Shown here piece by piece: positions 823-61,264 of a stretch of 64,000 bases of DNA. Position numbers and translations under genes: made by a program. The first letter of the stretch is position 1, and every line of letters starts with the position of its first letter. Below the pieces are notes generated by a model. That model saw only the letters and a list, made by a program, of their open reading frames with translations. It did not search any database and was not told where the DNA came from. Source of the stretch: an uncultured Caulobacterales bacterium (GTDB lineage Bacteria; Pseudomonadota; Alphaproteobacteria; Caulobacterales; CAYPOX01); NCBI GenBank assembly GCA_964412525.1, contig CAYPOX010000002.1, forward strand, positions 27-64,026. The letters run 5' to 3'.

Positions 823-837
823 GGACGCGCTTCTAGA

Positions 838-4907: not shown

Positions 4908-4935
4908 TGAACGTTAAGGAGCGAGGGGCGAACCG

Positions 4936-6898: not shown

Positions 6899-6938
6899 TG
6901 TTTCCGCATTTTGATTGGGGGCGACGGCTGCTTTGAGT

Positions 6939-7877: not shown

Positions 7878-7885
7878 AATAATAC

Positions 7886-9034: not shown

Positions 9035-9035
9035 G

Positions 9036-10142: not shown

Positions 10143-10185
10143 CCTCGTGGTTAGGTCGTTAACACAAGAAAAACTAAACGATCTT

Positions 10186-12312: not shown

Positions 12313-12411
12313 GGCCCCGCCATTAACACAAGCGGGAAACGGTTCCGTCGCTGGATCTCACCTCAAGGGCGTTGCCCCGAACTGGCGACAACGTTGCTTA
12401 GGGCTTAAACC

Positions 12412-26505: not shown

Positions 26506-27003
26506 TCAGCTCGAGAGCATGGGCGCGCGGGTCCAGACCTCCGCGCCCAAAGTGCGCCCTTTCACTGTCGACCAGGCGCCGGCCATGCGGTCGTCTCCCG
26601 TCACCTCGAACAGGGCCGCGCCGCCATTGAACGCGATCGCCAGCGCCTTGGCGGAGGCGACCCCCAAGCCTTGATAGCTTTGGCCCTTCATGGCGCCGCT
26701 CTCTATGCGCCAATGCACGGCGTAGACATGGCCGGCAGGCCGGATGTCCACGGCCCCGGCGTAACGGGCACCGTTGGGCGCGAAGCCTTCGATCCGCCAC
26801 CGGCCGATCAGATCGACCCGCGGCGCCGGTTCGGGCGCCGGCGCGGGGGTCGGGCGTTTGCGGAACCAGCCGGCGGCGCGCCGCCAGAGGTTATGGATCA
26901 GACGGAGCGGATCACGCGGGGCGGCCGCGGAGTCGCGGCGAAGGGTCGTCGTCGTCATGTCGTGTCGTCGTTCGGACGGATCAGGGGCGGCGCGCGGGAT
27001 CAT
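26506..27003 (-). CDS. hypothetical protein, translationally coupled to the cadherin-like gene
   Basis: 165 aa. Its ATG (27003-27001) overlaps the upstream TGA (27002-27000) as ATGA. The C-terminal ~100 aa look beta-rich (GRWRIEGFAPNGARYAGAVDIRPAGHVYAVHWRIESG...). No family recognised. Confidence 0.5.
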   Translation of the reverse strand: MIPRAAPDPSERRHDMTTTTLRRDSAAAPRDPLRLIHNLWRRAAGWFRKRPTPAPAPEPAPRVDLIGRWRIEGFAPNGARYAGAVDIRPAGHVYAVHWRIESGAMKGQSYQGLGVASAKALAIAFNGGAALFEVTGDDRMAGAWSTVKGRTLGAEVWTRAPMLSS

Positions 27004-30000
27004 GCGATCGCATCAATCGGCAGGCCGAAAAAGGCGACCCCATCGTCGGCGAGGCCGTCGGCGACGCCCGCATCCCGCGCCTCTTCGCCGGGCGCATAGG
27101 TCAGATCCCCGGTGATCGGATCGCGCAGCCGGAAGACCGGCACGGCCCCGGCCGTCTCCTCCAGAACGCCGCCAAAGCCGACGCCCTCAAACCGGGCTTG
27201 GCCGAACAACGCGTCGCGCTCATCGGGATCGTCGGTGAACACATAGCTGCCGGTAGTCGGATCGAAGAGACGAAAGACAGGCACGCTGTCTTCCAGGCCG
27301 ACGCGGTCGCTTGGGAACACTTGGATCGCGAAATCGGGATCGGCGAGGAAATCCGGCGAGGCGTCAAGCGCGGCCCGCTCGCTGGCGGTCGCGGTCAAGA
27401 GTTCGCCGCCGGCGGCGAGATTGTCAAAGGCGGTGAGCGTCACCGGCGCAGTGAGATCGAAGAGCGGCTCGCCCTCCACGTCATAGACGTAGAAGGCGAT
27501 CCCTTCGAAGCGGAAGGAGGCGGGATCGAAGAATTGCGAGGTGCCGACCGCGGCGGTGGTGTAGAAATGGGAGCCGCGATTGAGATCGAAAAAGCGCACA
27601 ATGGCCGTCGCGCCGTCAAAGGCCTCCGGGAAGGCGGAGAACACCGCCGCCTCGAATTGGAAGCGCGGATCGGCGATCACCGCGTCCCGCTCGACCGGAT
27701 CGATCGTGAAGAAATGGGTTCCGGTTTCAAGATTGACGAAGCGGAAGACGAGTTCGGAGCCGCCGAGGCCGGCGTCCGCGGCGTTCAGGGTCAACAGATC
27801 GAGGGGCTCGTCGTCGAAGGCCGGCGATGCGTCGAGCGCCGCTTGCTCCTCCGGGCTGACGGAGAACAGGAAGTCGCTCGCCGACGGATTGAAATAGCCC
27901 GGCACGATCACCGCCCGATCCTCCACCGTGCGCGGATCGGTTTCGTCTCCCACAAGGTCGAGAATTTCGATCGTCAGCGCGCGGCTGTCGCCGGTCACCG
28001 CGCCGTCCCGCGCCGCGACCGTGATCTCATAGAAATTGTCGCCATTCGCGTCCGCAGGCGCTTCGAAATCGGCGCGCGCGGCGAAGATCAGATCGCCGGT
28101 GAGCGGATCTACGAGAAAATCCGCCGCATCCGGCCCGCCCAAAATGACGAGGTCCGGATCATCGCCCGGATCGGGATCAAAGGCGGAGACCGCCGCCACG
28201 CCGCGGCTGTTTTCAAGCACGCGAATGATCCCGTCCTCGCCGGTCTGACCCAGTTCCGGATCGACGATCACGGTCGGCAGATCGTCCACGCCCGTGACCG
28301 TGACCTGAATCTCGGACTCCGCGACCCCGCCTCGGGCGTCCAGGACGGCGTAGGTCGCGACGTCGAGCGCGCTTTCGCCCGGCAGGAGCACGTCAAAGGC
28401 CCCGTTCGGGTCATAGGCGAAGAAGCCGTCATTGCCGACCGTGAGGATCGCGCCGGACGGCAAGATGAGAGGCGCGTCCACGGCCTCGGCGAGACCGTCC
28501 ACGGCGGTCACCACGAAGGGATCGCCGTTCGGATCGAAATCGTTGAAGAAGGCGTTGCCGTTCAAGACTTGGTCCGCCGGCGTCGTCACGTCGTCGACGC
28601 GCGCGGTCGGCGGATCGTTCTCCGCCACCTGGATCGTCACCGGGCCGGTGGAGAGGCCTTGGGGATCCTTCAACTCCACGTCGAAGCTGCCCATCCGCAT
28701 TTGCGGATTGGCGAGCACGAAGATGATCTCTCCCGCGGCGATCTCGGAGGAGGCGATCTCGATCGCGACCGCTTCGGGATCGGAGGTGCGCGCGAGAAAG
28801 CCGTTGGTGGCGTTCGAGACGAAGAAGATGAGCTCGTCCTGGGTCGCGTCCGGATCAACGCCGATCAGATCCTCGGCCGTGACCGGCACCACCGGCACGC
28901 TTTCGATCGTGACGGTGCGATCGCCTTCGATGACGGGGACGTCGTTCTCGCCTTCGATCGTCAGCGTCACACGGCCGAAGCTGATCCGATCGGTCGTGTC
29001 GATGATCGCGTATTGGAAGCTGTCTTCGGCGGTCTCTCCGTCAAGGAGGAAATCAAAGGCGTCGAGAGGATCGTAGAAAACGTCGCCGTCCTGGACGAGC
29101 TGCACGAAGGCGCCGGAATTCAGATCTGCGTCCAGGCGCAATTCCGGTTCGAACACCAGCGTGCCGATCCCATCCTTGAAGGGCCCGAACAGATCGACCC
29201 GGATGAAGTCGCCGTCGACGTCGAAATCGTTTTCAAGCACGTCGAGGGAGAGGATTTCATTCTCCCCCACCCGGCCGTCTTCGCCCACCTCGACCACATC
29301 GTCGATCGCCGTCGGATCGTCCTCCACCGGCGTCACGGTGAGATTGATCGTGATTTGGGCGGTCTCCTGATCGTCGGTGACCTCGACGATCAGGGAGTCG
29401 CTGCCGAAGAAATCCGGGTTCGGCGTGTAGAGGAGCTTCGTCGTCGGGGTGACGGGGTCGATCTCGGTCGTCGGCTCGAGCTTCGCCGCCTCAACAGTCT
29501 CCCGCACATTAAGAAAGAGATTGGTCTCGCCGTTTGCGGGCGCCGTCACGATCCGCCAGGACAAGCGGTCTCCGTCATCCGGATCGAACACCTCAAGCAA
29601 GGAGGTTAGATCGACATCGACGGAGTCCTCCGGGAGGGTTAGCGACGCCGTCGCGCCTTCCGTAAAGACCGGCGCGTCGTTCACCGGCAGGATGGTGACG
29701 TCGACTTTGAGGGTCGCGGTCAGCCCCGCGCTGTCCGTGGCGCGGATGACGAAAACGTCCGTCCCGGTCTCGTTCAAATTTGGTATATATTCGATGCCTG
29801 TCGGCGTGTTGCCGACTTTGTCGATGCTTGGAACGACGAAGGGGACCCCCTCCACCACGCCGCGGGTCGGGAGAAGATTCGCGTCGGTCTCGTCGAAATC
29901 CCAGCGGATATTTTCGCCAAGATCGCGATCGTCGACGAGCAGCAAGGCGTCAAGATCGAAGGGCGTGTCCTCCGTCACCTCGATCGCAATCTCCGTGCGT

Positions 30001-31370
30001 TCGTCGAAATCGGGCGGCGATCCGCCGACGGGCGGCGCATCCGCCACGCCGGCGATCTCGATGGTGACGACCGACGTGTCCTTGTCGCCAAAGGCGTCGA
30101 CGATCGTGACCTCAAAAGTGTCGATTCCAGGCGCGCCGCCCTCGACGAGGAAATCGAACTTCGCGTTCGGATCGTAGATGAGCGTTTGCGTGTCCTTGTC
30201 GAACAGAACCGCGCCTTTGGTTCCAGCCGTCGACACGCTGTCGATCACAAGATCGCCGCGCGGACCATCGATGTCGGAATCATTCCCAAGAATGGGCTCG
30301 TAAAGATTGTTCGTCCGTTCAATCTCCGAGCCGGCGAAGACATCATCAGCCGCCGTCGGCGCGTCGTTCTGGCCGGTGACGGTGACGAGCACCGCGCCGG
30401 TCGTTTGCTCGCCGTCGCCATTGCGCGCGGTGAAGGGAACACGGTCCGTCGCCGTTTGACCCTCCGCGAGGGTCTCGAAACCGCCGGCCGGATCGTAGCT
30501 CAAAATCCCCTTGTCAGCGTCGAAGATCGCCGTTCCCACCAAATTCGGCGCATCGAGCTCAAACTCAAAGATTTCATAGGATTCTGGAACGCCGTCAGGA
30601 TCCGAGACAACCGCAAGCACTTCATTCAACGTGATCGTCGCCGCAGGACCGTCTTCCTTGGCGCTGAGCGGCGCCTCGCCCGCCACCAGCGGATCGTTGA
30701 CGCCGATCAAGCGTATGACGCTGGTGACCTCGCTGACGCCGCCGACGCCGTCGGAGATCTCGACCGTGACGGAGTCGAAGAATTCGTCGCCCACGCGGAC
30801 GAAGTTGAACTGATCGTTCGGGTCGTAAACATAGGTCCCGTCAGCCTGGACGGTGACGAGGGCGCCGGACGCGAGCGTCGTCTCCACGCCCACCGCGGCC
30901 GCCGATCCCTCCACCTTGCTGACAAAGATGATCTCGCCGTCGGCGTCGAAAGCGTCTTCGAGGAGTTCGCTCGCGACGGGCGGGCCGTCTTCAGTGGTCG
31001 AGACCTCCTCGTCCGGCGCAAAGGGCGCGTCGTTCTGGCCAGTGATGGTGACGACCACCAAGGCGGTCGCTTGGTTCCCGTCTTCATCCTCAATCGTGTA
31101 AGCGAAGGAGTCCGTCGCCGTTTCACCCTCGGCCAGGAACTCGAATAGGCCACGTCCGTCATAAACGACCGTGTCGGCGTCCGGATCATAAACGGCCGTT
31201 CCGATCGTGTCGGAATCGTCCACCCCGACAATGACCAGCGGGGAGCCTTCGGCGTCGCTGTCGTTCAAGATCAGCGTTTTCGAGCCGATGGTGAGGCGGG
31301 CGTTGTCCTCAAGCAGGCTCGCGGCGTCGTCCAAAGCGATCGGCGGCGTCGTCATAAAGGCATCCGTCAT
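27000..31370 (-). CDS. 1456-aa cadherin-like/VCBS-repeat surface protein with C-terminal DUF5648-like repeats
   Basis: About ten ~100-aa units end in the cadherin-like/VCBS signature (VVVTITGQNDAPFA, VLVTVTGQNDAPTA, VDVTILPVNDAPVF, IQVTVTGVDDLPTV...). The last ~250 aa carry four repeats such as VPVFRLFDPTTGSYVFTDDPDERDALF. No Sec signal (MTDAFMTTPPIALDD). Confidence 0.8.
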   Translation of the reverse strand: MTDAFMTTPPIALDDAASLLEDNARLTIGSKTLILNDSDAEGSPLVIVGVDDSDTIGTAVYDPDADTVVYDGRGLFEFLAEGETATDSFAYTIEDEDGNQATALVVVTITGQNDAPFAPDEEVSTTEDGPPVASELLEDAFDADGEIIFVSKVEGSAAAVGVETTLASGALVTVQADGTYVYDPNDQFNFVRVGDEFFDSVTVEISDGVGGVSEVTSVIRLIGVNDPLVAGEAPLSAKEDGPAATITLNEVLAVVSDPDGVPESYEIFEFELDAPNLVGTAIFDADKGILSYDPAGGFETLAEGQTATDRVPFTARNGDGEQTTGAVLVTVTGQNDAPTAADDVFAGSEIERTNNLYEPILGNDSDIDGPRGDLVIDSVSTAGTKGAVLFDKDTQTLIYDPNAKFDFLVEGGAPGIDTFEVTIVDAFGDKDTSVVTIEIAGVADAPPVGGSPPDFDERTEIAIEVTEDTPFDLDALLLVDDRDLGENIRWDFDETDANLLPTRGVVEGVPFVVPSIDKVGNTPTGIEYIPNLNETGTDVFVIRATDSAGLTATLKVDVTILPVNDAPVFTEGATASLTLPEDSVDVDLTSLLEVFDPDDGDRLSWRIVTAPANGETNLFLNVRETVEAAKLEPTTEIDPVTPTTKLLYTPNPDFFGSDSLIVEVTDDQETAQITINLTVTPVEDDPTAIDDVVEVGEDGRVGENEILSLDVLENDFDVDGDFIRVDLFGPFKDGIGTLVFEPELRLDADLNSGAFVQLVQDGDVFYDPLDAFDFLLDGETAEDSFQYAIIDTTDRISFGRVTLTIEGENDVPVIEGDRTVTIESVPVVPVTAEDLIGVDPDATQDELIFFVSNATNGFLARTSDPEAVAIEIASSEIAAGEIIFVLANPQMRMGSFDVELKDPQGLSTGPVTIQVAENDPPTARVDDVTTPADQVLNGNAFFNDFDPNGDPFVVTAVDGLAEAVDAPLILPSGAILTVGNDGFFAYDPNGAFDVLLPGESALDVATYAVLDARGGVAESEIQVTVTGVDDLPTVIVDPELGQTGEDGIIRVLENSRGVAAVSAFDPDPGDDPDLVILGGPDAADFLVDPLTGDLIFAARADFEAPADANGDNFYEITVAARDGAVTGDSRALTIEILDLVGDETDPRTVEDRAVIVPGYFNPSASDFLFSVSPEEQAALDASPAFDDEPLDLLTLNAADAGLGGSELVFRFVNLETGTHFFTIDPVERDAVIADPRFQFEAAVFSAFPEAFDGATAIVRFFDLNRGSHFYTTAAVGTSQFFDPASFRFEGIAFYVYDVEGEPLFDLTAPVTLTAFDNLAAGGELLTATASERAALDASPDFLADPDFAIQVFPSDRVGLEDSVPVFRLFDPTTGSYVFTDDPDERDALFGQARFEGVGFGGVLEETAGAVPVFRLRDPITGDLTYAPGEEARDAGVADGLADDGVAFFGLPIDAIA

Positions 31371-31426: not shown

Positions 31427-32965
31427 TCACTCCGTGAAGGCGGTCTCCAAAGGCAAACCGAACGCCTTCATCGCCGGTGCGGTGTTGACGAGGAAGCGAT
31501 CGGCCTGCTTGCGCAACTCGGCCTTCGCCGCGTCGTCATTCTCAGCAGGCTTGCCTTCAATCATCACATTGCGTCCTTTGGATCTCAGATCCGCCAACAC
31601 GCGATCGACGATGCCGTCCGCCGACCCGTCGCCGAAATGCTTGGCGTAGATCTGATCCATGGCGCTCATCGCGAACCCGGCGCCCAAGCCGGAGGCGAGC
31701 ACGTGGACGGTGCGTTCCGTCAAAGTGCGGTCCAAGACCTCGCGGTTGAACGGCTTCGGCGGCGCGCCATCCTTCCGCATCACCGGCGACGCCTGGCCAG
31801 AGATCAAAAGCGCTTCGACGGCGCTGTAAGCCTTCTCAAAGGTGTCGGCCCCGGATGCGGCATGGAGTTCGCGGATCGTCTTCGGGCCGTCCGCCAGGGC
31901 CTCGACCGCGGCGCGCACGACCGGCGTGTCGAATTTGGCCTGCCGTCCCATGAGCTGGGCTTCGAACTTAATCCCCTCGCCGCCGACCCGTAGCGCGATC
32001 ACGCTGTCGGCGAGAACGTCCCGCTGTTCATTGCGGCTCAATCGGCGACCGCCGCGGGTGTAAATGTCGCGCCGGAACTGGGCGTTGGTGCAGTAATCGC
32101 GCGCCAGCTCCCGCAACTCCATAGTGGGCAGCTCGTTGACAAGTTGGAGCTGATCCTGTGTCAACGTGTATCGGAAATTGTTTTCCGCAAACGTCGCCGA
32201 CGCCGCGAAGGTGAGCTTCGCCTCCCCCATCTCCGCCATCGCTTGGGTGACGTAGAGCGGATACCAGGCCTGATTGAGATACTCCTGGGCGAGATAATTC
32301 ACGGGCTTTTTCTCGAGCCCTTCCATCATCTTCGACATGCGCGCATTGGTGGCGAAAGCGACGGCCTTGGCGTCCTTCAGCTTCTCGCCGAATTGGATCG
32401 CCTGGCGCACCTTATGGGTGGATTGGCCCGGCACGATCGCCGCATATTCGGAAAACAGCCGCTGGAGCGGCGCGATCGTCGCCCAACCCGGCAGGGTGTT
32501 GTAGCTCACATAAACGAGCCCCCCCGGCGCCAAGAACTTCCGGATGAACTCCACCATCTCCCGGCGGTTCTCCGGCGTGATCCAGGAATAGACGCCATGG
32601 GTCACGATATAGTCGAACTGCGGAAAATCCGCATCGACCGCATCGGCGAAGGCCATTTCGTGAAACGCGACATTGCCGATATCGCCCTCCCGCGCGAGCC
32701 GTCGCGCATTGGAGATGTGCACGGGCATGAAATCGATCCCATGCACCTCCGCCTCCGGATTGGCCGCGGCGAAGACATTGGTGGACAGGCCGTTGCCGCA
32801 ACCAAGTTCGCAATAGCGAAAGCGCGCGCCGTCATGCTCCGGCGGCGCGACGCCGCGCGTGACGGCGGCGAAGTTCAAATGCGCCGGGCCGAGCTCTTGG
32901 AAAAATTGGGTCGTGTATTCCTGATCGACAACATACCCGTCTGACCAATCGGACATGGGTGACAT
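31427..32965 (-). CDS. SAM-dependent methyltransferase of the 'methyltransferase regulatory domain' (PKMT-like) family
   Basis: Track ORF 31427..33007; ATG 32965 follows AGGAAAGGA. RYCELGCGNGLSTNVF (motif I) and FDYIVTHGVYSWITPENRREMVEFIRKFLAPGGLVYVSYNTLPGW, which I recognise as the hallmark of this ~520-560-aa family. Confidence 0.8.
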   Translation of the reverse strand: MSPMSDWSDGYVVDQEYTTQFFQELGPAHLNFAAVTRGVAPPEHDGARFRYCELGCGNGLSTNVFAAANPEAEVHGIDFMPVHISNARRLAREGDIGNVAFHEMAFADAVDADFPQFDYIVTHGVYSWITPENRREMVEFIRKFLAPGGLVYVSYNTLPGWATIAPLQRLFSEYAAIVPGQSTHKVRQAIQFGEKLKDAKAVAFATNARMSKMMEGLEKKPVNYLAQEYLNQAWYPLYVTQAMAEMGEAKLTFAASATFAENNFRYTLTQDQLQLVNELPTMELRELARDYCTNAQFRRDIYTRGGRRLSRNEQRDVLADSVIALRVGGEGIKFEAQLMGRQAKFDTPVVRAAVEALADGPKTIRELHAASGADTFEKAYSAVEALLISGQASPVMRKDGAPPKPFNREVLDRTLTERTVHVLASGLGAGFAMSAMDQIYAKHFGDGSADGIVDRVLADLRSKGRNVMIEGKPAENDDAAKAELRKQADRFLVNTAPAMKAFGLPLETAFTE

Positions 32966-33133
32966 TCCTTTCCTTAAAGGCGAACGCGCGGGCGCGCCGA
33001 CGCGCACGAGCTTTCGTCTCGCTTGAACCAGGCTTGCGCGCGCCGCGCAACACCCCTCGCCGCCGGACGGCGGCCCAAAAGAAAAGGGCGGGGCCGAAGC
33101 CCCGCCCTGAAGGCGTGATCCGACTGGATCCGA

Positions 33134-39100: not shown

Positions 39101-42100
39101 CGCCTGCGTCTCCAGACGGAATGCCAACTCGTCATTCGACTTGTCTTCGTCAAAGTCGAGCGTCGTCGCGCCGAGGCGCACGTCGATATTGGCCGCCTGT
39201 GAGTTCGGGTCACGGGATTCATCGGCGATCGAGTTGATAAACGTGTTGACGAAGAGTTCAAAGTCCGCAACGCCATTGTCGTTGTTGCCATCGGCCCCTC
39301 CTCCAGGGGCCCCCGTATTGTCCACAAACACCGTGCCGGCATAAGCCGCGCTTTCGAATTCGACGCCGTTGAGGGTGAGCTTCAACGTGTCGCCGACCGC
39401 AATCGTCGTTAGGTCGATGACGAACTCCACGATTTGGTCATTGGCGAGCGTCGTGCCGGTGTCGAGAACCCCATCCGCATCGAAATCGGACTGCACGGCG
39501 TCATTGCCGCCAAAGCGCTGCGCGCCGAAATCAATGACGAAGTCCGCGCCCTGGATGTCCAGATCGTTCGTCGTCTCATCGACGCGCGTATTGGTGTTCC
39601 GCGCGCTGTAGTCGACGAAAATCAGGCGGTCGCCGAGCAGAACCTCATCTAGGGTCGTAACGGCTTGAACGTCGAGCGGATCGTCGTCGATGTTGCCGGA
39701 GACCGAAGCGTTCTTGAAGGTGCGGCCAGCCGCATCCGTGATCGTGATGGTGGTCGCGCCGGCGACCGCCGTGATGTCCGGATCCGTGTTGGCTTCGTTG
39801 AACTCCGCCGCCAGCTCAGTCAGCGTCGTGGCGCCGCCCTCCAAGTCATTGATGCCGACATTGACGAGTTCGAAGCCGTCTTCGTCACTACCGATTTGGT
39901 AGCTGAAGAAGGTGATGTCGGGAATGTCGTCTTCGCCGCCGTCGACCGCATCGAAATTGAGGAATTGGTAGATGATCTGAGATTCCGCGTCGAGCTGGGC
40001 GCCGATGCGGTAATCCTTGGTGAACAGAAGCTCGCCAGTCGTCGGATCAACGTCTTGGAAGCCGTCACCGTTCAGATCGGCCTGGCGCCAGATCAGGTCG
40101 GCGTCATCGCTGACGGAGAACAGGAAGTCGTCCTTACCGTCATTGCCCGACAACAGGTCATCGCCTTCGCGGCCTTCCAGGACGTCGTCCCGGCCATTCG
40201 CATAGAGAGCGTTTTCGTTCGTGTCACCGCGCAGATCGAAGGGCTGGTTGATGCCGCCCAGATTGGCGCGCTCCGGAAGCACCTCAGCGTTACCGTCGCC
40301 GATGATGTTGTAATCAAAGCCGCCAAGGCCCGTCGTGATGACGTTTTCGAAGTTATCGATCTCAACCACGCCGCCGACCGCAAGCTCGGGCGCGACCGTC
40401 GATTGGAACGCCGTGCCGCCGACTTCAGAGTTGCCGTAATTGCGGAACGCCGCCAGGCCGGAGCCGACATTGCCGTCTCCGATGCCGTCTAAATTCGCGT
40501 CGCCGCCGGAACCGTTCTGGTTGCCGAGGTCGAAACGGATCGTGTTGTCCGAAAGACCCGCGCCAAGAGCGCCGCCGGACACGCCCGTCGTGCCGACGGT
40601 CGTGCCGACCGCCGCGCCGAGCGAGAACTCGGTGAGGAACAAGGTGTCGCCGTCATCAACCGGGTCGGCGTCATCGCGAATTTGGATCGAACCCAAATTG
40701 GTCGTGTCGTCGACGTTGCCGTCCGCCAAGCGGTCGGAAAGGTCGAACATTACGAAGTCATCGTCGGCGCCCGCATCGATCGAGTCCAACCCGTCGTCAA
40801 GAATCTTGCCGTCGGTGTCGTTGGCCGTCACGCGCACGGCGCCGAGCGTCGCCGCCGTTTCGAGGTCGCCTTGATCAAGCAGGTTCGAGTTGTTGCCGTT
40901 GCGGATCAAGAATTCGAGGTCGCCGCCGAGGATGACGTCATCCCCGTCGCCGGAACGGATCCGGTCATTGTCGTAGCCGCCGATGATGACGTTGCCCACC
41001 GGCGTGCCCTCAACAACGAGCTGCGCCGTGGAGCCCCGACCAAACGGCAGGAATGCGTCGCTCAAATCCCCGTCCTTATTGGGATCGGTCGCCGCGAGCG
41101 CGATATAGGTCTCGTCCGTGTCGCGCAGACCGCCAAGCTTCAGGCCCGCTTCAAAGAATTGCGCGCCGACCTCGGCGTCGAACACGCCGTAGAGGTTGCC
41201 CGAGGCGTCGAAGCTTTCGACGTCGATCAGGTCCGCCACCGTGACGCCCGACGAGTCCGTCACGTCCGCCGTGCCGGCGCCAGTGAACTGGCTGCCCGCG
41301 CCGCCTTCGTCGAGACGGACCGTGAACGGCTCTTCATCGTCCGTACCTTCGAAGAGCAAGAAGTCATTGTCCTGCAGCAGGGTGACTTCGTCGTCGCCGA
41401 TGATGCGCTCGTCGTCGACCGTCGAGCCGCCGTCGATCACCGTGAAGCCTTGGTTGCCGATGACGTTCTGATCCGGGATCGAGCCTTCAATGAAGATGAA
41501 GTCCGTGTTCCGACCCGTTTGAACCCGGTCGCCGCCGCCATTGACGCTATTGCCCTGAGCGCCGTTGACGAAACCGCCCGGCGCGATGAAGTCGTTGCCG
41601 ATGCCGGTCAGGATGTTGTCGCCGCCGAGACCGCCAAGGACCACGTTGCCGTCCGTCGCCGTGCCGTCGCCGCCGAAACCTTCGCCGCGGAAGTTCAACG
41701 ACCCGATGAAGTTGTTGGTCGCGTCGAACGCGCCGCCATTCACGTTGCGCGGCGCGGCGTCGAACAGCTTGAAGTTCGTGACGTTCAGGATCTCGCGGGC
41801 GTTGAACTCAGCCTGGGTGTCGAACACGCCGTCGCCGTCAAGGTCGATCTGCTCGATCTGCTCGCCCGTGTCCGTGATGTCGACGGAGAGATTGGCGTCG
41901 CCCGTAACGCGCAGCAGCGCCAGATCGCCCTCGCCGGTGAGGTCGATTTCACCGTTGCCGTCCAGGTCGCCCTGCTCGGGGCGAAGCGGGTTTTGGCCGC
42001 CATTGGTGTTGACCGTGAAGGTGACGATCTCGCCGGACAGATCCGTGAAGCCTTGGGAAACCTCGCCGCCGGACGGGATGCCAGGCCGACCCTCAGAGAA

Positions 42101-42778
42101 GCCGATCTGAATGAAGTGCTGCAGGCCGGTTTGCAGGCCGAGCGTGCCGAATTCCGGCGCCGCGTCGACGAAAGCCGCCACGTCCGGGTTGTTGTTCAAA
42201 TAGAAGACCGGATCAAAGCCTGGCGTGAAGCGCGCGTCGACACCCGGGGTGAAGACGTTGTCGCCGTTATTGTCCAGGAACGCCGGGCGCAGGCCTTGGC
42301 GGATTTCGCTCTCGCCGAATTCGAAATAGTGCAGATAGGCGTTGACGCCGGCCGCTGCGACATCCGGGTTCGCGGCGAGATAGGCCGCGGTGTCGAAGAA
42401 CTGGTTCGGGTCGGCTTGCGGATCGGAACCGTCAAGGGCTTGCTGATCGTCGAGGGAGTCGAGGTCGTTGCCGAAGCGCACATAGTGTTCAAAGGCCGAG
42501 CCCACTTGGCCGGCGTCGATGGCGTCTTGCGCCGCCGGGTTGTTCGCCAGGTAGCTCGCGTCGTCGAACAGATCGTCGTTCGCCGGCTCCAGGAACGGCG
42601 AGAAGGGACGGCCTTCGTCATTGCCGAAAGCGATGAAGTGATCGAAGGCGTCGATGCGCACCTCTTCGACCGTCGTGCCGGGCTCCGCGTTTACGAAGAA
42701 CGTTTCGCGGAGATCCGCGTTCGGGCCGACCGAGAGATAAAAGGTCGAGTCGAAGATCAAGATGTCGAAGTCAGTCAT
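33134..42778 (-). CDS. giant (3214-aa) acidic RTX-type repeat protein, probable T1SS adhesin
   Basis: Track ORF 33134..42847; ATG 42778 follows AGAGGGGA. No signal peptide. N-terminal four-repeat FDxxxYLxxNPDV module. Scattered and dense GGxGxD nonapeptides ([78 protein letters not shown]). Ends ...[19 protein letters not shown]. Confidence 0.9.
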   Translation of the reverse strand: [3214 protein letters not shown]

Positions 42779-43067
42779 CGGGTGTCCCCTCTTTGCAAAC
42801 CGATCAGCGAGCACAGCGCGCGCGCACGGACGCCGCACGCGCCGCACACTTGCCTACTCGGGTTGCGTAACTAACAAACACCCGTGAGTCTTCCAACCCG
42901 CCCAAGGCGCGATTGTGAATCTTTCTTTAGATTTTTTTTAACCAGATCCGCCCGGAACGGCGGCCTTGCTGAATTTGGATTCTAGCGCGATGGTTAGGAA
43001 GTTGCTATATAAGGACGGATGGCGACGCGGTCGCGGCCGCGCGCGGAGGCATTAGGACGAATCGCTC

Positions 43068-43394
43068 ATGTATACGCATCCCCAACATGGCGCGGCCCAG
43101 CAGGCCCATGATTTGCGCCGCCGAGCCGGGCAGTGGCTGAAGCGCCTGCGCACGGAACAAGGCCTTTCTCAAAGGGAGCTCGCGCGGAAGCTCGACCTCG
43201 AGGCCTACACCTTCATCTCGCAACTGGAATCCGGCCGCGGTCGGATCCCCCCCGATCGGATGGAGCGTTGGGCGGCGGCTCTCGGCCAGGAGCCGGGCGA
43301 TTTCGCCGCCGCGCTGATGCGCTTCTACGATCCCATCACCTTCCAACTTCTCTCACGCACCGGAAAATTGCAGGCGCCAGATCTCGACGTTTAA
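43068..43394 (+). CDS. XRE-family helix-turn-helix transcriptional regulator
   Basis: 108 aa; LKRLRTEQGLSQRELARKLDLEAYTFISQLESGRGRIP is a canonical HTH_XRE. Divergent from the giant RTX gene and upstream of the T1SS operon. Confidence 0.85.
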   Translation: MYTHPQHGAAQQAHDLRRRAGQWLKRLRTEQGLSQRELARKLDLEAYTFISQLESGRGRIPPDRMERWAAALGQEPGDFAAALMRFYDPITFQLLSRTGKLQAPDLDV

Positions 43395-43486: not shown

Positions 43487-45118
43487 ATGAGCGCCGCGCT
43501 GTTGGCCTTTCCGCAAGGCCCCGCGCCCTGGTCCAACCAGGAGCGCGCCGACGTTTATCGCGCCTTTCGTCTCCTGACCCAACAAGGCGCGGCGATCGAA
43601 CTGGTCGAAGGCGCCGCCGAAGACGGCGCGCCCTGGTTCGCCTTCGTGGATGCGGAAACGGGCGAGTCCATCCTTCATCTTGGCCGGGAAGGCGCCGGCG
43701 TGACCGCAGTCGACCGCTTGGGCCGGGTGCTGGCCCGCGGCCGCGACATGCGCCAGGTGATCGACCAAGCCGCCGGCGCGCGGCTGGCGCCGGTCTCGCC
43801 CTTTGGCGGCGCCGGCGAGGTGTTCGCCCATCCCGCGACCGGGCTGGCCGCCCTCGTCATCTCGCTCGCCGTGGTGGCGGAGACCGAGGCCTATGCGCAA
43901 TTGGCGCGCTTGGCGATCGACGCGGATGAGGCGGATCTCATTTCGGACGATCGGATGATCGTCGCCTCCGCGACGACGACCGTTGCGGCCGCTGCGCCTG
44001 ACGCGGGTTCCGACGCCGCCCCGAAGACGACGCCGACGCCGGCCGAAGCGGCGCAGGCCGCGGTCGCGGCGGCCCTGCCTGCACCGGGCGCGGCGTCGAT
44101 CGACATGGATTTGGCCGCGGTCTTGGCGTCCGCGATCGACGCGGCGCTGGCGGCGGCGACGTCCGCAGAGAGCTTGGCGCCCCTTCCCGCCCCCGAAACC
44201 GTGGCGGCGACGATCGATGCGGCGCGGCTGGAGCTCGACGGGCTTCGCGCGACGGCGGACGCCTTGCGCGCCGCCGCCGACGACGGATCGAGCGCCATTC
44301 TCGCGCAACGCCTTTTGGATGCCGCCGACATGGTCGATGCGCGCGTCGCGGCGGCGGAGGACCGGCTCGCCGAGGCGGAGGCGGCCTTGGAGACCGCCCT
44401 CGCCGAGGGCGAGACGACGGCGGCGCTTGAGAACGGCTCGGCGGTCCTGGGCGGCGACGGCGACGACGTGATCGCGGCCGGCGACGGCGACGACGTCATC
44501 TTGTCGGGCGCCGGCGCCGATTTGATCGACGCGGGCGACGGCGACGACGTGGTGTTCGCCGGCGTCGGAAGCGACGTGGTTCTGGGCGGCGACGGCGATG
44601 ATCTGATTTCGGCCGGCGACGGCGACGACGTGGTGGACGGCGGCGACGGGAACGACGTGATCCAAGGCGGTGCGGGCGACGACGTGATCGCCACCGGCGC
44701 GGGGGATGACGTGGTGGACGCCGGAGACGGCGACGACGTGCTGTTCGTCGGCGACGGCCACAATGTCGTGGACGGCGGCGACGGACGCGACCTCTTCGTG
44801 CATGACGCGACGAACGGCGTCGCGGTCCTGCGCGGCGGCGAAGGCATCAACGAGTTCGTCGCGGAAAGCGGCGACGGCGTCTATGTCCTCACGCCCGGCG
44901 ACATCGACGCCATCTATCTTCGAGGCGAAGAAGGCCATCTTGTCGTCGAGAACTTCGTCGTCGGCGAAGACTGGATCTATGTCGCCGATTCTCGGCTCGC
45001 CGACGTTTCTGTCGAATGGACCCATGGCGGCATTCGCATCGCTTTCAGCGAGGACGCCAGCCTGACCCTCGCCGGCTATGACGCCCTTCCGACGGCGCTC
45101 GACGATCTGTTGATCTGA
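43487..45118 (+). CDS. 543-aa RTX (hemolysin-type calcium-binding) protein, T1SS substrate candidate
   Basis: No signal peptide. Unrecognised N-terminal ~130 aa, an Ala-rich helical middle, then about 12 consecutive nonapeptides ([38 protein letters not shown]...). Located immediately upstream of the ABC/MFP genes. Confidence 0.85.
   Translation: [543 protein letters not shown]
44447..44797 (+). repeat. tandem 27-nt RTX nonapeptide-coding repeats (GGCGACGGCGACGACGTG-type)
   Basis: aa 321-437 of the 543-aa protein. The DNA-level repetition is visible as recurring ggcgacggcgacgacgt(g/c). Confidence 0.85.
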
Positions 45119-45237
45119 ATAGGGTGCGGCGTCTTTGACGGGCGCGCATGGATGCGCGTATGGCTGGCGCCGTCCGCGGAGCCGGCCCGGAGCGACCCGC
45201 GCCGAACGACGGAACGACCATTGAGGAACGAATTCTG

Positions 45238-47010
45238 ATGTCGCGATCCCCTGCGCCCGTGGCGGCGCTGTTGAAAGAGGCTTTGTCCCAGGTCCGCCGC
45301 GCCCTGGTGATCGTCGGCGCCTTCAGCTTGGCCTTGAACCTGCTGATGCTGACGGCGCCGCTCTATATGTTCCAAGTTTTCGACCGGGTGCTCGGCTCCG
45401 GCCGGGTCGAGACGCTGTTGCTGCTCACCCTGATCGCGGGCTTCGCGCTGATGACCTATGGCGCGCTGGAAGCGATCCGCCAGCGCCTGCTCGCCCGGGT
45501 GTCGACCTGGCTGTCGCTCGCCGCCTCGGACGATCTGATCGACCGCTCCGTGCGCGCGGCGACCCGCGGCGCGCGCTTTGGCGGCCAGCCTTTGCGCGAC
45601 CTGGCCACCATTCGCAGCTTTCTCGGCGGCCAGGGCGTGACGCCGCTCTTCGACGCCCCCTGGATGCCGATCTTTCTGGGCGTTCTCTTCCTGATGCACC
45701 CGATTCTGGGCATGCTGGCCGTGGGTGCGGCGATCATCCTGTTCTGCCTGGCGGTCCTGAACGAAGTTCTGACCCGCAAGCCCTTGGGCGAAGCCTCCGG
45801 CCTCCAGTCGACGCTTCTCAACCAGACCGACGCGGCGGTGGCCAACGCCGAAGTGCTCGAGGCCATGGGCATGACCAAGGGCCTGGTGAAGCGCTGGATG
45901 CGCCAGAACGCCGAAGTGCTGACCCGCCAGCAGGCCGCCGCCGATCGGTCGGGCATGCTGCTCGGAGCCACGAAATTCACCCGCCTGTTCGTGCAGGTCG
46001 GCATTCTGGGCGCCGGCGCCTATCTCGTCCTGCAAGGCCAGCTCACCTCCGGCGCGATGATCGCGGGCTCGGTGTTGATGAGCCGGGCGCTCGCCCCGGT
46101 GGAGCAGGCGATCGGCGCCTGGCGCCAGCTTGTCGCCGCCCGCACCGCCTATGATCGTCTGAAAAAGGTGATCGCCGCCCTGCCAGACCGAGAGCCGTCC
46201 ATCGAGCTGCCCGAGCCCAAGGGCAAGCTTGAGGTGCAAGGCGTGGTCTACGCTCCGCCCGGCGCGGCGAAGCCGATCCTGAAAGGCGTCTCCTTCGCTT
46301 TGGCCCCCGGCGAGGCCATGGGCATGATCGGCCCGTCGGCTTCCGGCAAATCCACCTTGTGCCGGCTTCTGGTCGGCGCGGCGCCGCCTTCCTCCGGCTC
46401 GGTGCGCCTTGACGGAGCGGAGATGAGCCAATGGGACGCCGAAGCGCGCGGCCCCTATATCGGCTATCTCCCCCAAGACGTGGAGCTGTTCCAAGGCACG
46501 GTGCGCGACAACATCGCCCGGCTGCAGTCGGACGCGTCCGACGCGGACGTGGTCGACGCCGCCCAACGGGCGGGCGTGCATGAGATGATCCTGCATCTGC
46601 CCAAAGGCTATGACACGGAAATCGGGCCGCGCGGCGCCCAGCTCTCCGGCGGCCAGCGCCAGCGACTGGGCCTCGCCCGCGCCTTGTTCGGCGCGCCCAA
46701 ACTGATCGTGCTCGACGAACCCAACGCCAGTCTCGACCAGGCCGGCGAGGCGGCGCTGCAGGACTCGATCTTAAAGGCCAAGGAAACCGGCGCCACGGTC
46801 ATTCTCGTCGCCCACCGCCCGGCCATGATGAAGCATGTGGACAAGGTTCTGCTCATGCGGGACGGCCAGGTGGAGGCGTTCGGGCCGCGGGATCAGGTGC
46901 TCGCCAAGGTGATGCGCCCCGCCCCCGTGCCGACGCCCAAGGCGGGCGGCGGCCAAAGCGGTCCGGCCGGCTCGGACATGGTGACCATCACGGACATGGC
47001 GGGCGGCTGA
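45238..47010 (+). CDS. type I secretion system ABC transporter (PrtD/AprD/HasD-type, no C39 peptidase domain)
   Basis: Track ORF 45148..47010; ATG 45238 follows GAGGAA. TMD start LNLLMLTAPLYMFQVFDRVLGSGRVETLLLLT is typical of PrtD-type transporters. Walker A GPSASGKSTL, signature LSGGQRQRLGLARAL, Walker B LIVLDEPNASLD. Confidence 0.9.
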   Translation: MSRSPAPVAALLKEALSQVRRALVIVGAFSLALNLLMLTAPLYMFQVFDRVLGSGRVETLLLLTLIAGFALMTYGALEAIRQRLLARVSTWLSLAASDDLIDRSVRAATRGARFGGQPLRDLATIRSFLGGQGVTPLFDAPWMPIFLGVLFLMHPILGMLAVGAAIILFCLAVLNEVLTRKPLGEASGLQSTLLNQTDAAVANAEVLEAMGMTKGLVKRWMRQNAEVLTRQQAAADRSGMLLGATKFTRLFVQVGILGAGAYLVLQGQLTSGAMIAGSVLMSRALAPVEQAIGAWRQLVAARTAYDRLKKVIAALPDREPSIELPEPKGKLEVQGVVYAPPGAAKPILKGVSFALAPGEAMGMIGPSASGKSTLCRLLVGAAPPSSGSVRLDGAEMSQWDAEARGPYIGYLPQDVELFQGTVRDNIARLQSDASDADVVDAAQRAGVHEMILHLPKGYDTEIGPRGAQLSGGQRQRLGLARALFGAPKLIVLDEPNASLDQAGEAALQDSILKAKETGATVILVAHRPAMMKHVDKVLLMRDGQVEAFGPRDQVLAKVMRPAPVPTPKAGGGQSGPAGSDMVTITDMAGG

Positions 47011-47089: not shown

Positions 47090-48544
47090 ATGAAACCGCC
47101 CTTCACCCTCACCGGATGGATTCCGAAAGGCGCGCCGTTCAGCCGCCGCGCCAAGAAAGAGGCCGACGCGCCGAATCTCGAGGCGATCGAGGACGCCGAA
47201 GCGCCGCCGCCGATGCCGGAAGGCCCTTCCCCCTTTGCGGAGAAGCCGCAACTCATCAGCCTGTCGAAATCCACCATCGCCGCCGGCGCGGTGGTGGTCG
47301 GCGTGTTCTTCGTCGGCTTTGGCGGCTGGGCGATGACCGCGCCGCTCTCCTCCGCCGCGATCGCGCCGGGCGTGATTTCGCCCAATGGCTATCGCCGGAC
47401 GGTGCAGCATCTGGAAGGCGGCATCATCGCGGACATCCTTGTCGAGGACGGCGACACGGTGCGGGCGGGCGACCCGCTGGTCGTGCTCGACGACGTGCGC
47501 GCCCAGGCGAATTACGAAGTCATCCGGAACCAAACCTTCACCAATCTCGCCATCCAGGCGCGCCTGCTCGCCGAGCTGGCGGGCGACGTCGAGATTGGTT
47601 TTCCCGCCCAGGTCCGCGCCGCCATGAACCGCCCCCAGGTGGCCGACGTGGTGACCGCCCAAAGCAATCTCTTCGACGCCCGGCGCGAGTCCCGCACGAA
47701 GCAGATCGAGATCCTCCAGGCGCGCATCCGCCAATTGGACGAGCAAATCATCGGCTTTGAGGAGGAGATCGCCTCCCAGGATCGGCAGATCTCCATTTTG
47801 GACGAACAGATCGCCGACCAGCAGCAGCTCTGCGACAAAGAGCTTTGCCTGAAGTCCAATCTGCTCGGCCTGCAGCGCCTGCAAGCGGAGGTTGAAGGCG
47901 AACGCGCCCGCAACCGCGCCGCCATCGCCCAGGCCCGCCAATCGATCGGCGAGACCGAACTCCAGATCGCCGCGGTCGACACCGAGCGGCTGGACGAAAT
48001 CAACACGCAGCTGACCCAGGTCCGCGGCGAACTCGCCGAGCTTGAGGAACGCCTGATCGTCGGCGAGGACACGGTGAAGCGCACCATCATCGCCGCCCCG
48101 ATCGACGGCACGGTGGTCAATCTGCGCTACAAGACCTTGGGCGGCGTGATCCGCGCCGGTGAGCCGATCGTGGACGTGGTGCCCGACGACGAAGAGTTGT
48201 TGATCGACGCGCGGGTCTCGCCCGTGGACATCGACAACGTTAAGCCGGGCCTCAAAGCCTCGGTCGTGTTCTCCGCCTTCAAGCAGCGCAATATCGGCCG
48301 CATCGAAGGCGTGGTGCGCACGGTCTCCGCGGATGCGCTGGTCGACGAGAACACCGGCATGAGCTATTTCGCCGCCCGCATCGAGGTCGACGACGAGGTG
48401 GTGAAGCGCCAGCTTCCGCCCGATGCGGAGCTGACCCCGGGCATGCCGGCCGAGGCCTTCATCATGACCGGCGACGGCACCGTCTTCAGCTATCTCATGG
48501 ATCCGGTGACCGGCACGCTGCGCCGGGCGATGCGGGAGTTCTAA
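47090..48544 (+). CDS. HlyD-family type I secretion membrane fusion protein
   Basis: 484 aa with a single N-terminal TM (AAGAVVVGVFFVGFGGWAM). TVQHLEGGIIADILVEDGDTVRAGDPLVVLDD (lipoyl-like motif), a long coiled coil, and C-terminal ...GMPAEAFIMTGDGTVFSYL. Confidence 0.9.
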   Translation: MKPPFTLTGWIPKGAPFSRRAKKEADAPNLEAIEDAEAPPPMPEGPSPFAEKPQLISLSKSTIAAGAVVVGVFFVGFGGWAMTAPLSSAAIAPGVISPNGYRRTVQHLEGGIIADILVEDGDTVRAGDPLVVLDDVRAQANYEVIRNQTFTNLAIQARLLAELAGDVEIGFPAQVRAAMNRPQVADVVTAQSNLFDARRESRTKQIEILQARIRQLDEQIIGFEEEIASQDRQISILDEQIADQQQLCDKELCLKSNLLGLQRLQAEVEGERARNRAAIAQARQSIGETELQIAAVDTERLDEINTQLTQVRGELAELEERLIVGEDTVKRTIIAAPIDGTVVNLRYKTLGGVIRAGEPIVDVVPDDEELLIDARVSPVDIDNVKPGLKASVVFSAFKQRNIGRIEGVVRTVSADALVDENTGMSYFAARIEVDDEVVKRQLPPDAELTPGMPAEAFIMTGDGTVFSYLMDPVTGTLRRAMREF

Positions 48545-52926: not shown

Positions 52927-53141
52927 GGTTCGGCGCGCCGTAACGTCGCACCTCTTGCCGCCACGACGCTCCGCTGTCGGAAGGCTGGGGATGATCGCTC
53001 AATGTTTCGCAAAAGTTTCACGGAAGGCTGCTAGCTCCCGGCCATCAGGGGACACGGGTCCGTGGGTTGGCCACGACCCTCCGCGCGCCATCCGTCGACG
53101 GGTCATGCGGCGCGCGCCAAGGTTCAAAGGGGAGAACATCC

Positions 53142-61182: not shown

Positions 61183-61264
61183 TGTTCTCTTAAGGACGGG
61201 GCTTGGGCGGCTCGTTCCGCCGTCCGGGTCGACGCGCGTTCGAGCTGATCACGGCGCGGCGCCT

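What the first reader, a model, noticed from the sequence alone, without database searches (positions are those of the whole stretch)
42080..42778. A ~220-230-aa four-repeat 'FDxxxYLxxNPDV...HYxxxGxxEGR' module is N-terminal in the giant RTX protein but C-terminal in the 631-aa protein
Seen: the first 233 aa of the giant protein (42080-42778) and the last 216 aa of the 631-aa protein (24449-25096) are collinear, repeat for repeat. Examples: FDSTFYLSVGPNADL..FDHFIAFGNDEGRPFSPFL vs FDQAFYLGRGGNADL..FAHWFDVGLEEGREYSPLL; FFDTAAYLAANPDVAAAGVNAYLHYFEFGESEI vs FFDPAAYRAANPDIAAAV..FVHYLQFGEAEI; FDPVFYLNNNPDVAAFV..LQHFIQIGFSEGRPG vs FDPVFYAAENPDVADFV..LQHFLESGLAEGRPG. Known: I have seen similar short repeats on secreted proteins and glycosyltransferases of alphaproteobacteria and cyanobacteria, but I know of no assigned function. 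Inference: this may be a shuffled cell-surface or glycan-anchoring module. Its presence at opposite termini in two co-operonic proteins argues that it works independently of position.
Basis: partly seen in the sequence, partly recalled or inferred. Interest (0 to 1): 0.6.

Follow-up and report, generated by a model that had tools for sequence, protein, structure and literature searches.

The report
Shuffled helical-repeat module on secreted proteins
Two secreted-type proteins in this window share an ancient four-repeat block from a very large helical-repeat family that has no database model, solved structure or known function, and that elsewhere sits mostly on sugar-polymer-building enzymes.

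Summary
The first 233 aa of the giant RTX protein and the last ~216 aa of the 631-aa protein align collinearly (42% identity, E=7e-46), and each of the four repeats is the reciprocal best match of its counterpart. A third protein from another contig, a serralysin-type RTX protease (P0371), carries the same block at 66% identity.

The block is a divergent, loop-expanded form of a canonical 38-residue repeat, FDxxxYLxxNPDVAAAGxNPLxHYxxxGxxEGRxP. That family has 33,232 50%-identity clusters and 1-24 copies per protein at either terminus or internally. Pfam, NCBIfam, the PDB and the searched literature hold no match. AlphaFold models the canonical repeat confidently (pLDDT 95-98) as short-helix units with no Foldseek analog.

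Partner domains are mainly glycosyltransferases, methyltransferases and RgpF. A second class consists of signal-peptide-less proteases, lipases and RTX proteins.

Both window proteins look like type I secretion (T1SS) substrates. A similar T1SS cassette, with repeats at the N-terminus of RTX proteins, recurs on Rhodospirillum rubrum and Aureimonas plasmids.

Position independence is supported. "Co-operonic" is not, because a strong terminator follows the giant gene. Glycan anchoring is the best-fitting but unproven mechanism (about 0.4).

The parts
42071..42778 (-). N-terminal four-repeat module of the giant RTX protein (aa 1-236). Repeats: G1 aa 9-62 (42593-42754), G2 aa 71-113 (42440-42568), G3 aa 128-165 (42284-42397), G4 aa 188-236 (42071-42217).
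   Evidence: Repeat HMM hits, BLASTP E=7e-46, cognate-pair scores, AF2 model with 3 short helices per repeat at pLDDT 72.
24497..25096 (-). C-terminal four-repeat module of the 631-aa protein. Repeats: S1 aa 416-459 (24965-25096), S2 aa 466-507 (24821-24946), S3 aa 518-561 (24659-24790), S4 aa 568-615 (24497-24640).
   Evidence: It is 66% identical to the C-terminal module of P0371.
24446..24496 (-). 16-aa tail after the module, ending ...LDAETDALI, plus the stop codon. It is a candidate extreme-C-terminal T1SS motif (Asp followed by three hydrophobic residues).
   Evidence: The motif definition is taken from PMC2642768.
33134..42778 (-). Giant RTX protein gene: 3214 aa, pI 4.05, no Cys, RTX repeats mainly at aa 2566-2863, ending ...TADFIF.
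24446..26341 (-). 631-aa acidic protein gene: pI 4.05, no Cys, RTX-like nonapeptides at aa 17, 38, 57, 226 and 268, module at the C-terminus.
   Evidence: The weak serralysin RTX-region hits are not significant. The identical protein is P0370.
33085..33108 (-). Terminator-like hairpin AGGGCGGGGCTTCGGCCCCGCCCT followed by TTTCTTTT, just downstream of the giant gene.
45148..47010 (+). T1SS ABC transporter (620 aa). The ABC_membrane domain starts at residue 54, so there is no C39/CLD domain and it is of the PrtD/AprD/RsaD type.
47090..48544 (+). HlyD-family T1SS membrane-fusion protein.
43487..45118 (+). 543-aa RTX protein ending ...DDLLI. Its N-terminal ~125 aa is conserved in genes adjacent to the T1SS genes of R. 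rubrum and Aureimonas plasmids.
43068..43394 (+). XRE-type HTH regulator between the giant gene and the T1SS operon. An HTH gene occupies the same position in the R. rubrum and Aureimonas cassettes.
   Evidence: HTH_3, E=2.9e-11.
31427..33007 (-). Methyltransferase with a MethyTransf_Reg domain, homologous to the R. rubrum cassette gene (37% identity over 511 aa).
27000..31370 (-). 1456-aa cadherin-like/Big_9 protein with a C-terminal DUF5648, ending ...IDAIA. It is another putative T1SS substrate.

Best explanation
SHOWN. The module is a divergent, loop-expanded four-repeat block of a very large, unannotated family of 38-residue tandem repeats with consensus FDxxxYLxxNPDVAAAGxNPLxHYxxxGxxEGRxP. 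Each repeat is predicted to form three short helices, and tandem copies are predicted to form a confident helical array. The block was copied as a unit among T1SS-type proteins: it is N-terminal in the giant RTX protein, C-terminal in the 631-aa protein, and C-terminal in a serralysin-type RTX protease from another contig. Both window proteins have the hallmarks of substrates of the adjacent ABC/HlyD type I secretion system.

INFERRED. The repeat array is an autonomous, position-independent binding module for a polysaccharide chain. On cytoplasmic glycan-synthesis enzymes it would hold the growing polymer. On T1SS-exported proteins it would tether the protein to the producer's own surface polysaccharide, here the product of the perosamine-type glycan clusters that flank the T1SS island. 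This would be functionally analogous to the alpha-helical N-terminal domain of Caulobacter RsaA, which binds a perosamine-containing O-antigen.
For: Identity and shuffling:
- BLASTP E=7e-46, cognate repeat pairs, and a third architecture in P0371 at 66% identity with 84 invariant columns in the three-way alignment.

Family:
- 33,232 clusters at E<=1e-3 and up to 24 repeats per protein.
- Canonical consensus.
- AF2 pLDDT 95-98 over the five canonical repeats of P0005.

Link to glycans:
- Among 37 randomly chosen top representatives, partner domains were GT2 (14), GT1 (12), methyltransferases, RgpF, WbsX, GT8/9/92, pyruvyl transferase and GH64.
- In GH64 and beta-helix proteins the repeats occupy the position where carbohydrate-binding modules usually sit.
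- P0014 (matrixin plus repeats) lies directly downstream of a polysaccharide cluster.
- In L007 a repeat protein lies about 1 kb from a repeat-bearing GT2+GT1 enzyme.
- The window's T1SS island is flanked by WbqC, PglD-like acetyltransferases, a GDP-mannose-dehydratase-like gene, a DegT aminotransferase, GT2/GT1 genes and many methyltransferases.

T1SS substrate status:
- ABC and HlyD genes are adjacent.

Recurrence:
- R. rubrum and Aureimonas plasmids carry a similar cassette, with repeats starting at residues 5-9 of RTX proteins.

Analogy:
- The RsaA N-terminal domain (aa 1-249) is alpha-helical and binds a PerNAc/Man O-antigen (PMC6978808).
Against: - There is no binding data of any kind.
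- The conserved residues (N-P-D, D/N-P, G, aromatics) can all be explained as helix caps and hydrophobic core, so no ligand site is evident.
- None of the glycosyltransferases in this window carries the repeat.
- Helical solenoids more often bind proteins than glycans.
- Contexts of other homologs are heterogeneous: P0005 lies in a prophage, and P0038 and P0040 are uninformative.
- There is no sequence or Foldseek similarity to the RsaA N-terminal domain or to any carbohydrate-binding module.
- A domain that folds in the cytoplasm of glycosyltransferase-bearing cells should hinder T1SS export when placed at the C-terminus.
Confidence: 0.4

Rival explanations
1. The repeat is a generic helical-solenoid scaffold. 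It serves as a protein-protein interaction or oligomerisation module, or as a rigid spacer or ruler, with no glycan binding. In large glycan synthases, arrays of up to 24 repeats would set the distance between catalytic domains. In the T1SS proteins, the repeats would mediate self-association or docking to partner proteins.
For: - Arrays of 10-24 repeats fill the space between methyltransferase and GT domains, for example in P0100.
- Some members also contain coiled-coil regions (ATG16/TMF hits), reminiscent of the coiled-coil rulers in WbdD and WbbB (from my own knowledge).
- The conservation pattern is explicable by structure alone.
- Tiny stand-alone proteins of 2-3 repeats exist.
- Tandem paralogs occur in the same locus.
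Against: - It does not explain why partner domains are so strongly biased towards glycan enzymes and extracellular hydrolases.
- A 3-4-repeat block at the extreme terminus is a poor spacer.
- The idiosyncratic loops of the four-repeat block are conserved across three proteins, which suggests a specific ligand surface.
Confidence: 0.25
2. The N-terminal module is a retention plug. It folds in the cytoplasm before the C-terminus-first T1SS export is complete, stalls translocation and leaves the giant RTX protein anchored in the secretion channel, as in LapA/MpIBP-type adhesins.
For: - The repeats evidently fold in cytoplasmic enzymes, and fewer than 2% of family members have a signal peptide or TM segment.
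- AF2 predicts a compact helical array without Ca2+ sites.
- In RTX proteins next to T1SS genes, the repeats start at residues 5-9 (window; R. rubrum RTX830 and M10C; Aureimonas CaBP).
- T1SS export proceeds C-terminus first (PMC4648471, listed).
Against: - The same block is C-terminal in the 631-aa protein and in P0371, where it would have to pass through the channel first.
- The ABC transporter lacks the C39-like domain typical of LapB-type systems.
- No LapG or LapD homolog was found among the ORFs scanned.
- The repeat occurs on small enzymes that are presumably released.
Confidence: 0.12
3. The repeats are a secretion-related domain. They would be an alternative to the RTX beta-roll that sits before, or contains, the C-terminal T1SS signal, or that acts as an intramolecular folding nucleus after export.
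For: - In matrixin/serralysin-like, trypsin-like and GDSL proteins without signal peptides, the repeats occupy the extreme C-terminus, where serralysins carry RTX plus the signal.
- Pseudoroseomonas M10 proteins end exactly with the last repeat.
Against: - Most family members are multidomain glycan-synthesis enzymes, with repeats N-terminal or internal.
- In the giant and in the R. rubrum and Aureimonas RTX proteins the repeats are at the end opposite to the secretion signal.
- P0371 has both RTX repeats and the module.
Confidence: 0.08

Closest known systems
[quoted passage not shown]
   Same: It is a ~240-aa alpha-helical module at the N-terminus of an acidic RTX-type protein exported by a PrtD/RsaD-type T1SS. 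The genes lie beside perosamine-type O-antigen genes, and the domain anchors the protein to the O-antigen (PMC6978808).
   Different: There is no detectable sequence or Foldseek similarity. The RsaA domain is not a tandem 38-aa repeat, and it is not found on glycosyltransferases or at C-termini.
SLH (S-layer homology) domains
   Same: They are short helical repeats, usually three copies, that form one module. The module is placed at either terminus of many different secreted enzymes and S-layer proteins and binds a secondary cell-wall polymer. This is the closest precedent for a position-independent anchoring repeat (from my own knowledge).
   Different: No Pfam SLH hit was found. SLH proteins carry Sec signal peptides and SLH is not found on cytoplasmic glycosyltransferases. 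The motif (TRAE) and the repeat length also differ.
N-terminal retention modules of LapA/MpIBP-type giant RTX adhesins
   Same: They lie at the N-terminus of giant T1SS-exported RTX adhesins and determine cell-surface retention.
   Different: Those systems use a LapB-type ABC transporter with a C39-like domain, plus LapG and LapD. None of these was found here. In addition, the present module also occurs at C-termini.
TPR / Sel1 / armadillo-type alpha-solenoid repeats
   Same: They are tandem helical repeats of 34-42 residues in variable copy number, fused to many enzymes including glycosyltransferases.
   Different: No significant Pfam match to any of these was found. A cumulative 'Arm' score in P0162 had no stretch that passed on its own. 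Foldseek found no solenoid analog in the PDB. The conserved FD...YL..NPDV...HY...G..EGR.P signature is distinct.
RTX nonapeptide beta-roll (HemolysinCabind)
   Same: It co-occurs in the same T1SS substrates and is also a tandem-repeat accessory region.
   Different: The RTX beta-roll is a Ca2+-dependent beta-roll of 9-residue repeats, always close to the C-terminal signal. The present repeat is helical, 38 residues long, and mostly found on non-secreted enzymes.

Membership tests
Any Pfam-A or NCBIfam family covering the repeat | A significant HMM match over the repeat region | tested here: not met
   The window modules gave no hit at E<=1. Canonical members with 5-10 perfect repeats (P0005, P0140, P0225) matched no Pfam family and gave no relevant NCBIfam hit. 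InterPro, CDD and SMART could not be queried.
RTX protein (HemolysinCabind) | GGxGxDxUx nonapeptide repeats matching PF00353 | tested here: met
   The giant scored E=7.1e-18 with 7 stretches. The 631-aa protein has 5 motif matches by regular expression but no Pfam hit, so its membership is inconclusive.
Protease/lipase-type T1SS substrate | Acidic, Cys-poor, no Sec signal, extreme C-terminus of Asp followed by hydrophobic residues, encoded beside ABC and MFP genes | tested here: met
Protease/lipase-type T1SS substrate | Export that depends on the ABC/MFP/OMF system | not testable with these tools
   This needs secretion assays in wild type and in ABC or HlyD mutants.
RsaA N-terminal O-antigen-binding domain | Sequence or fold similarity to RsaA aa 1-249 | tested here: not met
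RsaA N-terminal O-antigen-binding domain | Binds the O-antigen of LPS | not testable with these tools
   Only context supports this: perosamine-type genes flank the T1SS island.
LapA-type retention module | N-terminal position in a giant RTX adhesin | tested here: met
   The module starts at residue 9 of the giant protein.
LapA-type retention module | LapB-type ABC transporter with a C39-like domain, plus a LapG protease and a LapD receptor | tested here: not met
   The ABC_membrane domain begins at residue 54 of the 620-aa transporter. No Peptidase_C93 or LapD domains were found among about 40 scanned ORFs. These genes could lie outside the window.
SLH domain | Match to the Pfam SLH model, and a Sec signal peptide on the carrier protein | tested here: not met
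   No SLH hit. Only about 5 of 249 family proteins have a signal-peptide-like N-terminus.
TPR/Sel1/ARM solenoid repeats | Significant match to a repeat HMM, or fold similarity to a solved solenoid | tested here: not met
   (the Arm hit had no individually significant stretch). In Foldseek against the PDB the best hit had E=1.2 and TM 0.06.

The most novel reading that the evidence does not exclude
The FDxxxYLxxNPDV...HYxxxGxxEGRxP repeat is an undescribed, widespread polysaccharide-recognition solenoid with more than 33,000 sequence clusters. The same fold would hold the nascent polymer on cytoplasmic glycan synthases and anchor T1SS-exported adhesins, proteases and lipases to that polymer on the cell surface. 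It would be the Gram-negative counterpart of SLH domains, and a new fold class of carbohydrate-binding module.
Probability: 0.3. Interest if true: 0.8.

Novelty: new variant of a known kind. Interest (0 to 1): 0.6.

Why it matters
- A repeat family with tens of thousands of sequence clusters has no Pfam or NCBIfam model, no solved structure, and no mention in the searched literature. It is a large piece of unannotated protein space.
- Its partner domains tie it to surface-polysaccharide synthesis and to type I-secreted surface proteins. If it binds glycans, it would explain how many alphaproteobacterial and cyanobacterial T1SS substrates stay on the cell. It would also add a new helical class of carbohydrate-binding module and give a handle on multidomain O-antigen/EPS synthases.
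- If it instead acts as a plug or a scaffold, it still defines a conserved plasmid-borne T1SS cassette: ABC, HlyD, an HTH regulator, a conserved RTX543-like gene, a MethyTransf_Reg methyltransferase, and substrates tagged with the repeat.
- The window provides a compact, testable system: two substrates carrying the module at opposite ends, beside their transporter and candidate glycan genes.

Tried and rejected
- Chance or low-complexity similarity: rejected (E=7e-46, cognate repeat pairs).
- Recent duplication or assembly artefact: rejected. DNA similarity is only residual and GC3 equals that of the host genes.
- Known domain: Pfam and NCBIfam gave nothing for the window modules or for canonical members. 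The weak DUF7669 and Arm hits in P0162 were below threshold or had no significant stretch.
- Solved structures: sequence searches of the PDB found nothing. Foldseek against the PDB with both models and against BFVD found nothing significant.
- Literature: motif-string searches (NPDV, YLxxNPDV, NPDVAAAG, GWKEGR and others) returned nothing relevant.
The genome-contig scan returned only a distant Acidisoma relative. Megablast against plasmids gave only short 74-80% matches to Azospirillum and Skermanella, so the organism is probably a member of the Rhodospirillales but remains unidentified.
- Profile search with two-repeat units: it returned only proteins of 133 aa or fewer. The tool appears to limit hits by length, so it gave no partner-domain statistics. 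I obtained those instead.
- LapG/LapD-type retention machinery: none found in the scanned ORFs.
- Consistent T1SS adjacency for all secreted-type homologs: not found. It holds only for the RTX-type cases on the R. rubrum and Aureimonas plasmids.
Full report
**1.

The two genes lie on the minus strand. The giant ORF spans 33134-42847 and the 631-aa ORF spans 24446-26341. A Shine-Dalgarno-like sequence, aGAGGGGAcacccgATG, precedes ATG 42778. The giant protein is therefore 3214 aa and the repeats begin at residue 9.

BLASTP of the giant's N-terminus against the 631-aa protein gives one collinear alignment, with 42% identity over 240 columns and E=7e-46. An HMM built from the eight repeats finds four units in each protein and nothing else in the six-frame translation of the window.

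Each repeat's best partner is its positional counterpart. The scores are 90, 83, 101 and 150 for cognate pairs against 65 or less for all others. The four-repeat block was therefore duplicated as a unit.

Only residual DNA similarity remains, and GC3 matches that of the host genes, so the duplication is old. The giant is a confirmed RTX protein.

**2. What the module is**

A homolog search returned 99 proteins. In these the unit is a sharply conserved 38-residue tandem repeat, FDxxxYLxxNPDVAAAGxNPLxHYxxxGxxEGRxP. It occurs in 1-6 copies at either terminus. The window's repeats are degenerate versions: loops are inserted in repeats 1 and 4, NPDV is lost in repeat 2, and EGR is lost in repeats 2 and 3.

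A profile of the canonical repeat was run against 1.84 billion cluster representatives. It finds 33,232 clusters at E<=1e-3, 20,705 at E<=1e-10 and 5,823 at E<=1e-30, with up to 24 repeats per protein.

Despite this abundance, no database or paper describes it:
- Pfam-A and NCBIfam have no model. Proteins with 5-10 perfect repeats match no family.
- The PDB holds no relative by sequence.
- Full-text motif searches found no paper.

AlphaFold2 models the window's module at pLDDT 72. It models the five canonical repeats of P0005 at pLDDT 95-98. Each repeat forms three short helices of about 7, 6 and 7-9 residues, plus a short extra turn.

**3. Who carries it**

There are two classes of carrier.

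The first class is large multidomain glycan-synthesis enzymes. Among 37 randomly chosen top representatives, the partner domains were GT2 (14), GT1 (12), SAM methyltransferases (5), RgpF (4) and WbsX (3). Single cases had GT8, GT9, GT92, GT4, polysaccharide pyruvyl transferase, GH64 and coiled-coil regions. Plasmid annotations agree: glycosyltransferase, methyltransferase and GH99-like.

The second class is extracellular-type proteins without signal peptides. These include matrixin/serralysin-like and trypsin-like proteases, a GDSL lipase, CHRD, PPC, PAP2 and beta-helix proteins, and RTX 'calcium-binding' proteins.

Only about 5 of 249 family proteins have a signal-peptide-like N-terminus, and 2 have a TM-like segment. 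Small stand-alone proteins of 2-3 repeats also exist.

**4. The window's context**

The window appears to be part of a plasmid or chromid, because it carries a RepA_C gene and a PIN toxin.

A T1SS island lies at 24-56 kb. It contains an ABC transporter of 620 aa with no C39-like domain, a HlyD protein, an XRE-type HTH regulator and a 543-aa RTX protein. It also contains the giant, a methyltransferase with a MethyTransf_Reg domain, and a 1456-aa cadherin-like protein. The 631-aa protein and an 885-aa 5'-nucleotidase-like protein complete it.

The island is flanked by glycan genes: WbqC, PglD-like acetyltransferases, a GDP-mannose-dehydratase-like gene, a DegT aminotransferase, GT2+GT1 and GT1 genes, a double GT2, and six or more methyltransferases.

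The 'co-operonic' claim is not supported. A strong terminator-like hairpin follows the giant gene at 33085-33108. Two genes and a 660-bp gap separate the giant from the 631-aa gene.

**5. The block and the cassette recur**

P0371 is a 727-aa protein from another NCBI contig. It has a matrixin domain with the HEIGHVLGF zinc motif, RTX repeats and a Pro/Glu-rich linker. These are followed by the same idiosyncratic four-repeat block, 66% identical to that of the 631-aa protein, and a short tail. The three-way alignment is collinear with 84 invariant columns.

The Rhodospirillum rubrum ATCC 11170 plasmid carries a similar gene set. It includes a glycosyltransferase, an HTH regulator, HlyD, ABC and rfbC. 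It also has:
- an 830-aa RTX protein with repeats at residues 5-133;
- a MethyTransf_Reg methyltransferase, 37% identical over 511 aa to the window's;
- a 462-aa 'M10 C-terminal domain' protein with repeats at residues 9-166;
- RepA.

Aureimonas pAU20e has ABC, HlyD, an HTH regulator and a 919-aa calcium-binding protein with repeats at residues 6-142.

The N-terminal ~125 aa of the window's RTX543 is homologous to unannotated genes in both of these cassettes (E=1e-15 and E=3e-13).

Other arrangements also occur. Pseudoroseomonas has two tandem M10 proteases that end in six repeats. A 2296-aa Trichormus RTX protein has the repeats near its C-terminus.

**6. Mechanism**

What is shown: the module is an autonomous, shuffled helical-repeat block on probable T1SS substrates. 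It belongs to a family that is otherwise dominated by glycan enzymes.

What is inferred (confidence about 0.4): the block binds a polysaccharide chain and tethers exported proteins to the producer's surface glycan. The closest functional precedent is the alpha-helical N-terminal domain of RsaA, which binds a perosamine-containing O-antigen (PMC6978808). No homology to RsaA was detected.

The rivals are:
- a generic scaffold, oligomerisation or spacer solenoid (0.25);
- an N-terminal retention plug (0.12), weakened by the C-terminal copies and by the lack of LapB/G/D features;
- a secretion or folding domain (0.08), weakened by the N-terminal and glycosyltransferase-linked copies.

An unresolved tension remains. 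A domain that evidently folds in the cytoplasm on glycosyltransferases should hinder T1SS export when placed next to the C-terminal signal. The loop-expanded, acidic form seen in the window may be an adaptation to this, but I could not test that.

**7. Novelty**

The repeat is visible in thousands of database sequences. As far as Pfam, NCBIfam, the PDB and the searchable literature show, it is undescribed. The kind of thing it represents, a position-independent accessory repeat on secreted proteins and enzymes, is known. I therefore rate it a new variant of a known kind, with interest 0.6.

Noticed in passing
window 27000-31370 (-) and 53067-55724 (+): A second accessory domain, DUF5648 (PF18885), sits just before the C-terminal Asp-hydrophobic tail in two other putative T1SS substrates: the cadherin-like 1456-aa protein and the 5'-nucleotidase-like 885-aa protein. 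The island thus uses at least two different shared add-on modules.
   Followed up: partly
window 43487-45118 (+); L008 3141-3995 (-); L009 6846-8699 (+): The N-terminal ~125 aa of the 543-aa RTX protein is homologous to unannotated genes next to the T1SS genes on the R. rubrum and Aureimonas plasmids (E=1e-15 and E=3e-13). It is a conserved cassette component of unknown function.
   Followed up: partly
window 31427-33007 (-); L008 14747-16279 (+): A SAM methyltransferase with a MethyTransf_Reg domain lies among the T1SS substrate genes and is conserved in the R. rubrum cassette (37% identity over 511 aa, E=5e-95). It could modify the glycan or the exported proteins.
   Followed up: partly
window 33085-33108 (-): A strong intrinsic-terminator-like hairpin (10-bp stem, 9 G·C pairs, TTCG loop, T-run) lies about 25 nt after the giant gene's stop codon.
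   Followed up: no
window 1-14000 and 58900-63800: Perosamine/bacillosamine-type glycan clusters lie on both sides of the T1SS island: WbqC, PglD-like acetyltransferases, MaoC, a DegT aminotransferase, a GDP-mannose-dehydratase-like gene, fused GT2+GT1, a double GT2 and many methyltransferases. GC content dips to 0.49-0.55 at 4-10 kb, compared with 0.60-0.70 elsewhere.
   Followed up: partly
window 56219-57157 (-) and 18833-19264 (-): A RepA_C replication protein and a PIN-domain toxin suggest that the window is part of a plasmid or chromid. The identical 631-aa protein is on record from an NCBI contig of 64,293 bases.
   Followed up: partly
L002 10001-11167 (Halomonas sp. McH1-25, GCA_022348165.1): P0005 has an RTX-like N-terminus and five canonical repeats. 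It is encoded inside a prophage, between the replication/regulation genes and the GH108 endolysin/holin lysis cassette.
   Followed up: no
L005 635-2482; L006 1554-5177; L010 7771-11852: Repeat-bearing genes often occur as tandem paralogs: two adjacent genes in L005, several small ones in L006, and two adjacent M10 proteases in Pseudoroseomonas.
   Followed up: no
P0250-P0369: Many proteins of 76-133 aa consist of only 2-3 canonical repeats, some of them on long contigs (for example Methylobacterium sp. 4-46 and Aliarcobacter butzleri). The repeat therefore also exists as a stand-alone protein, although some of these may be fragments.
   Followed up: no
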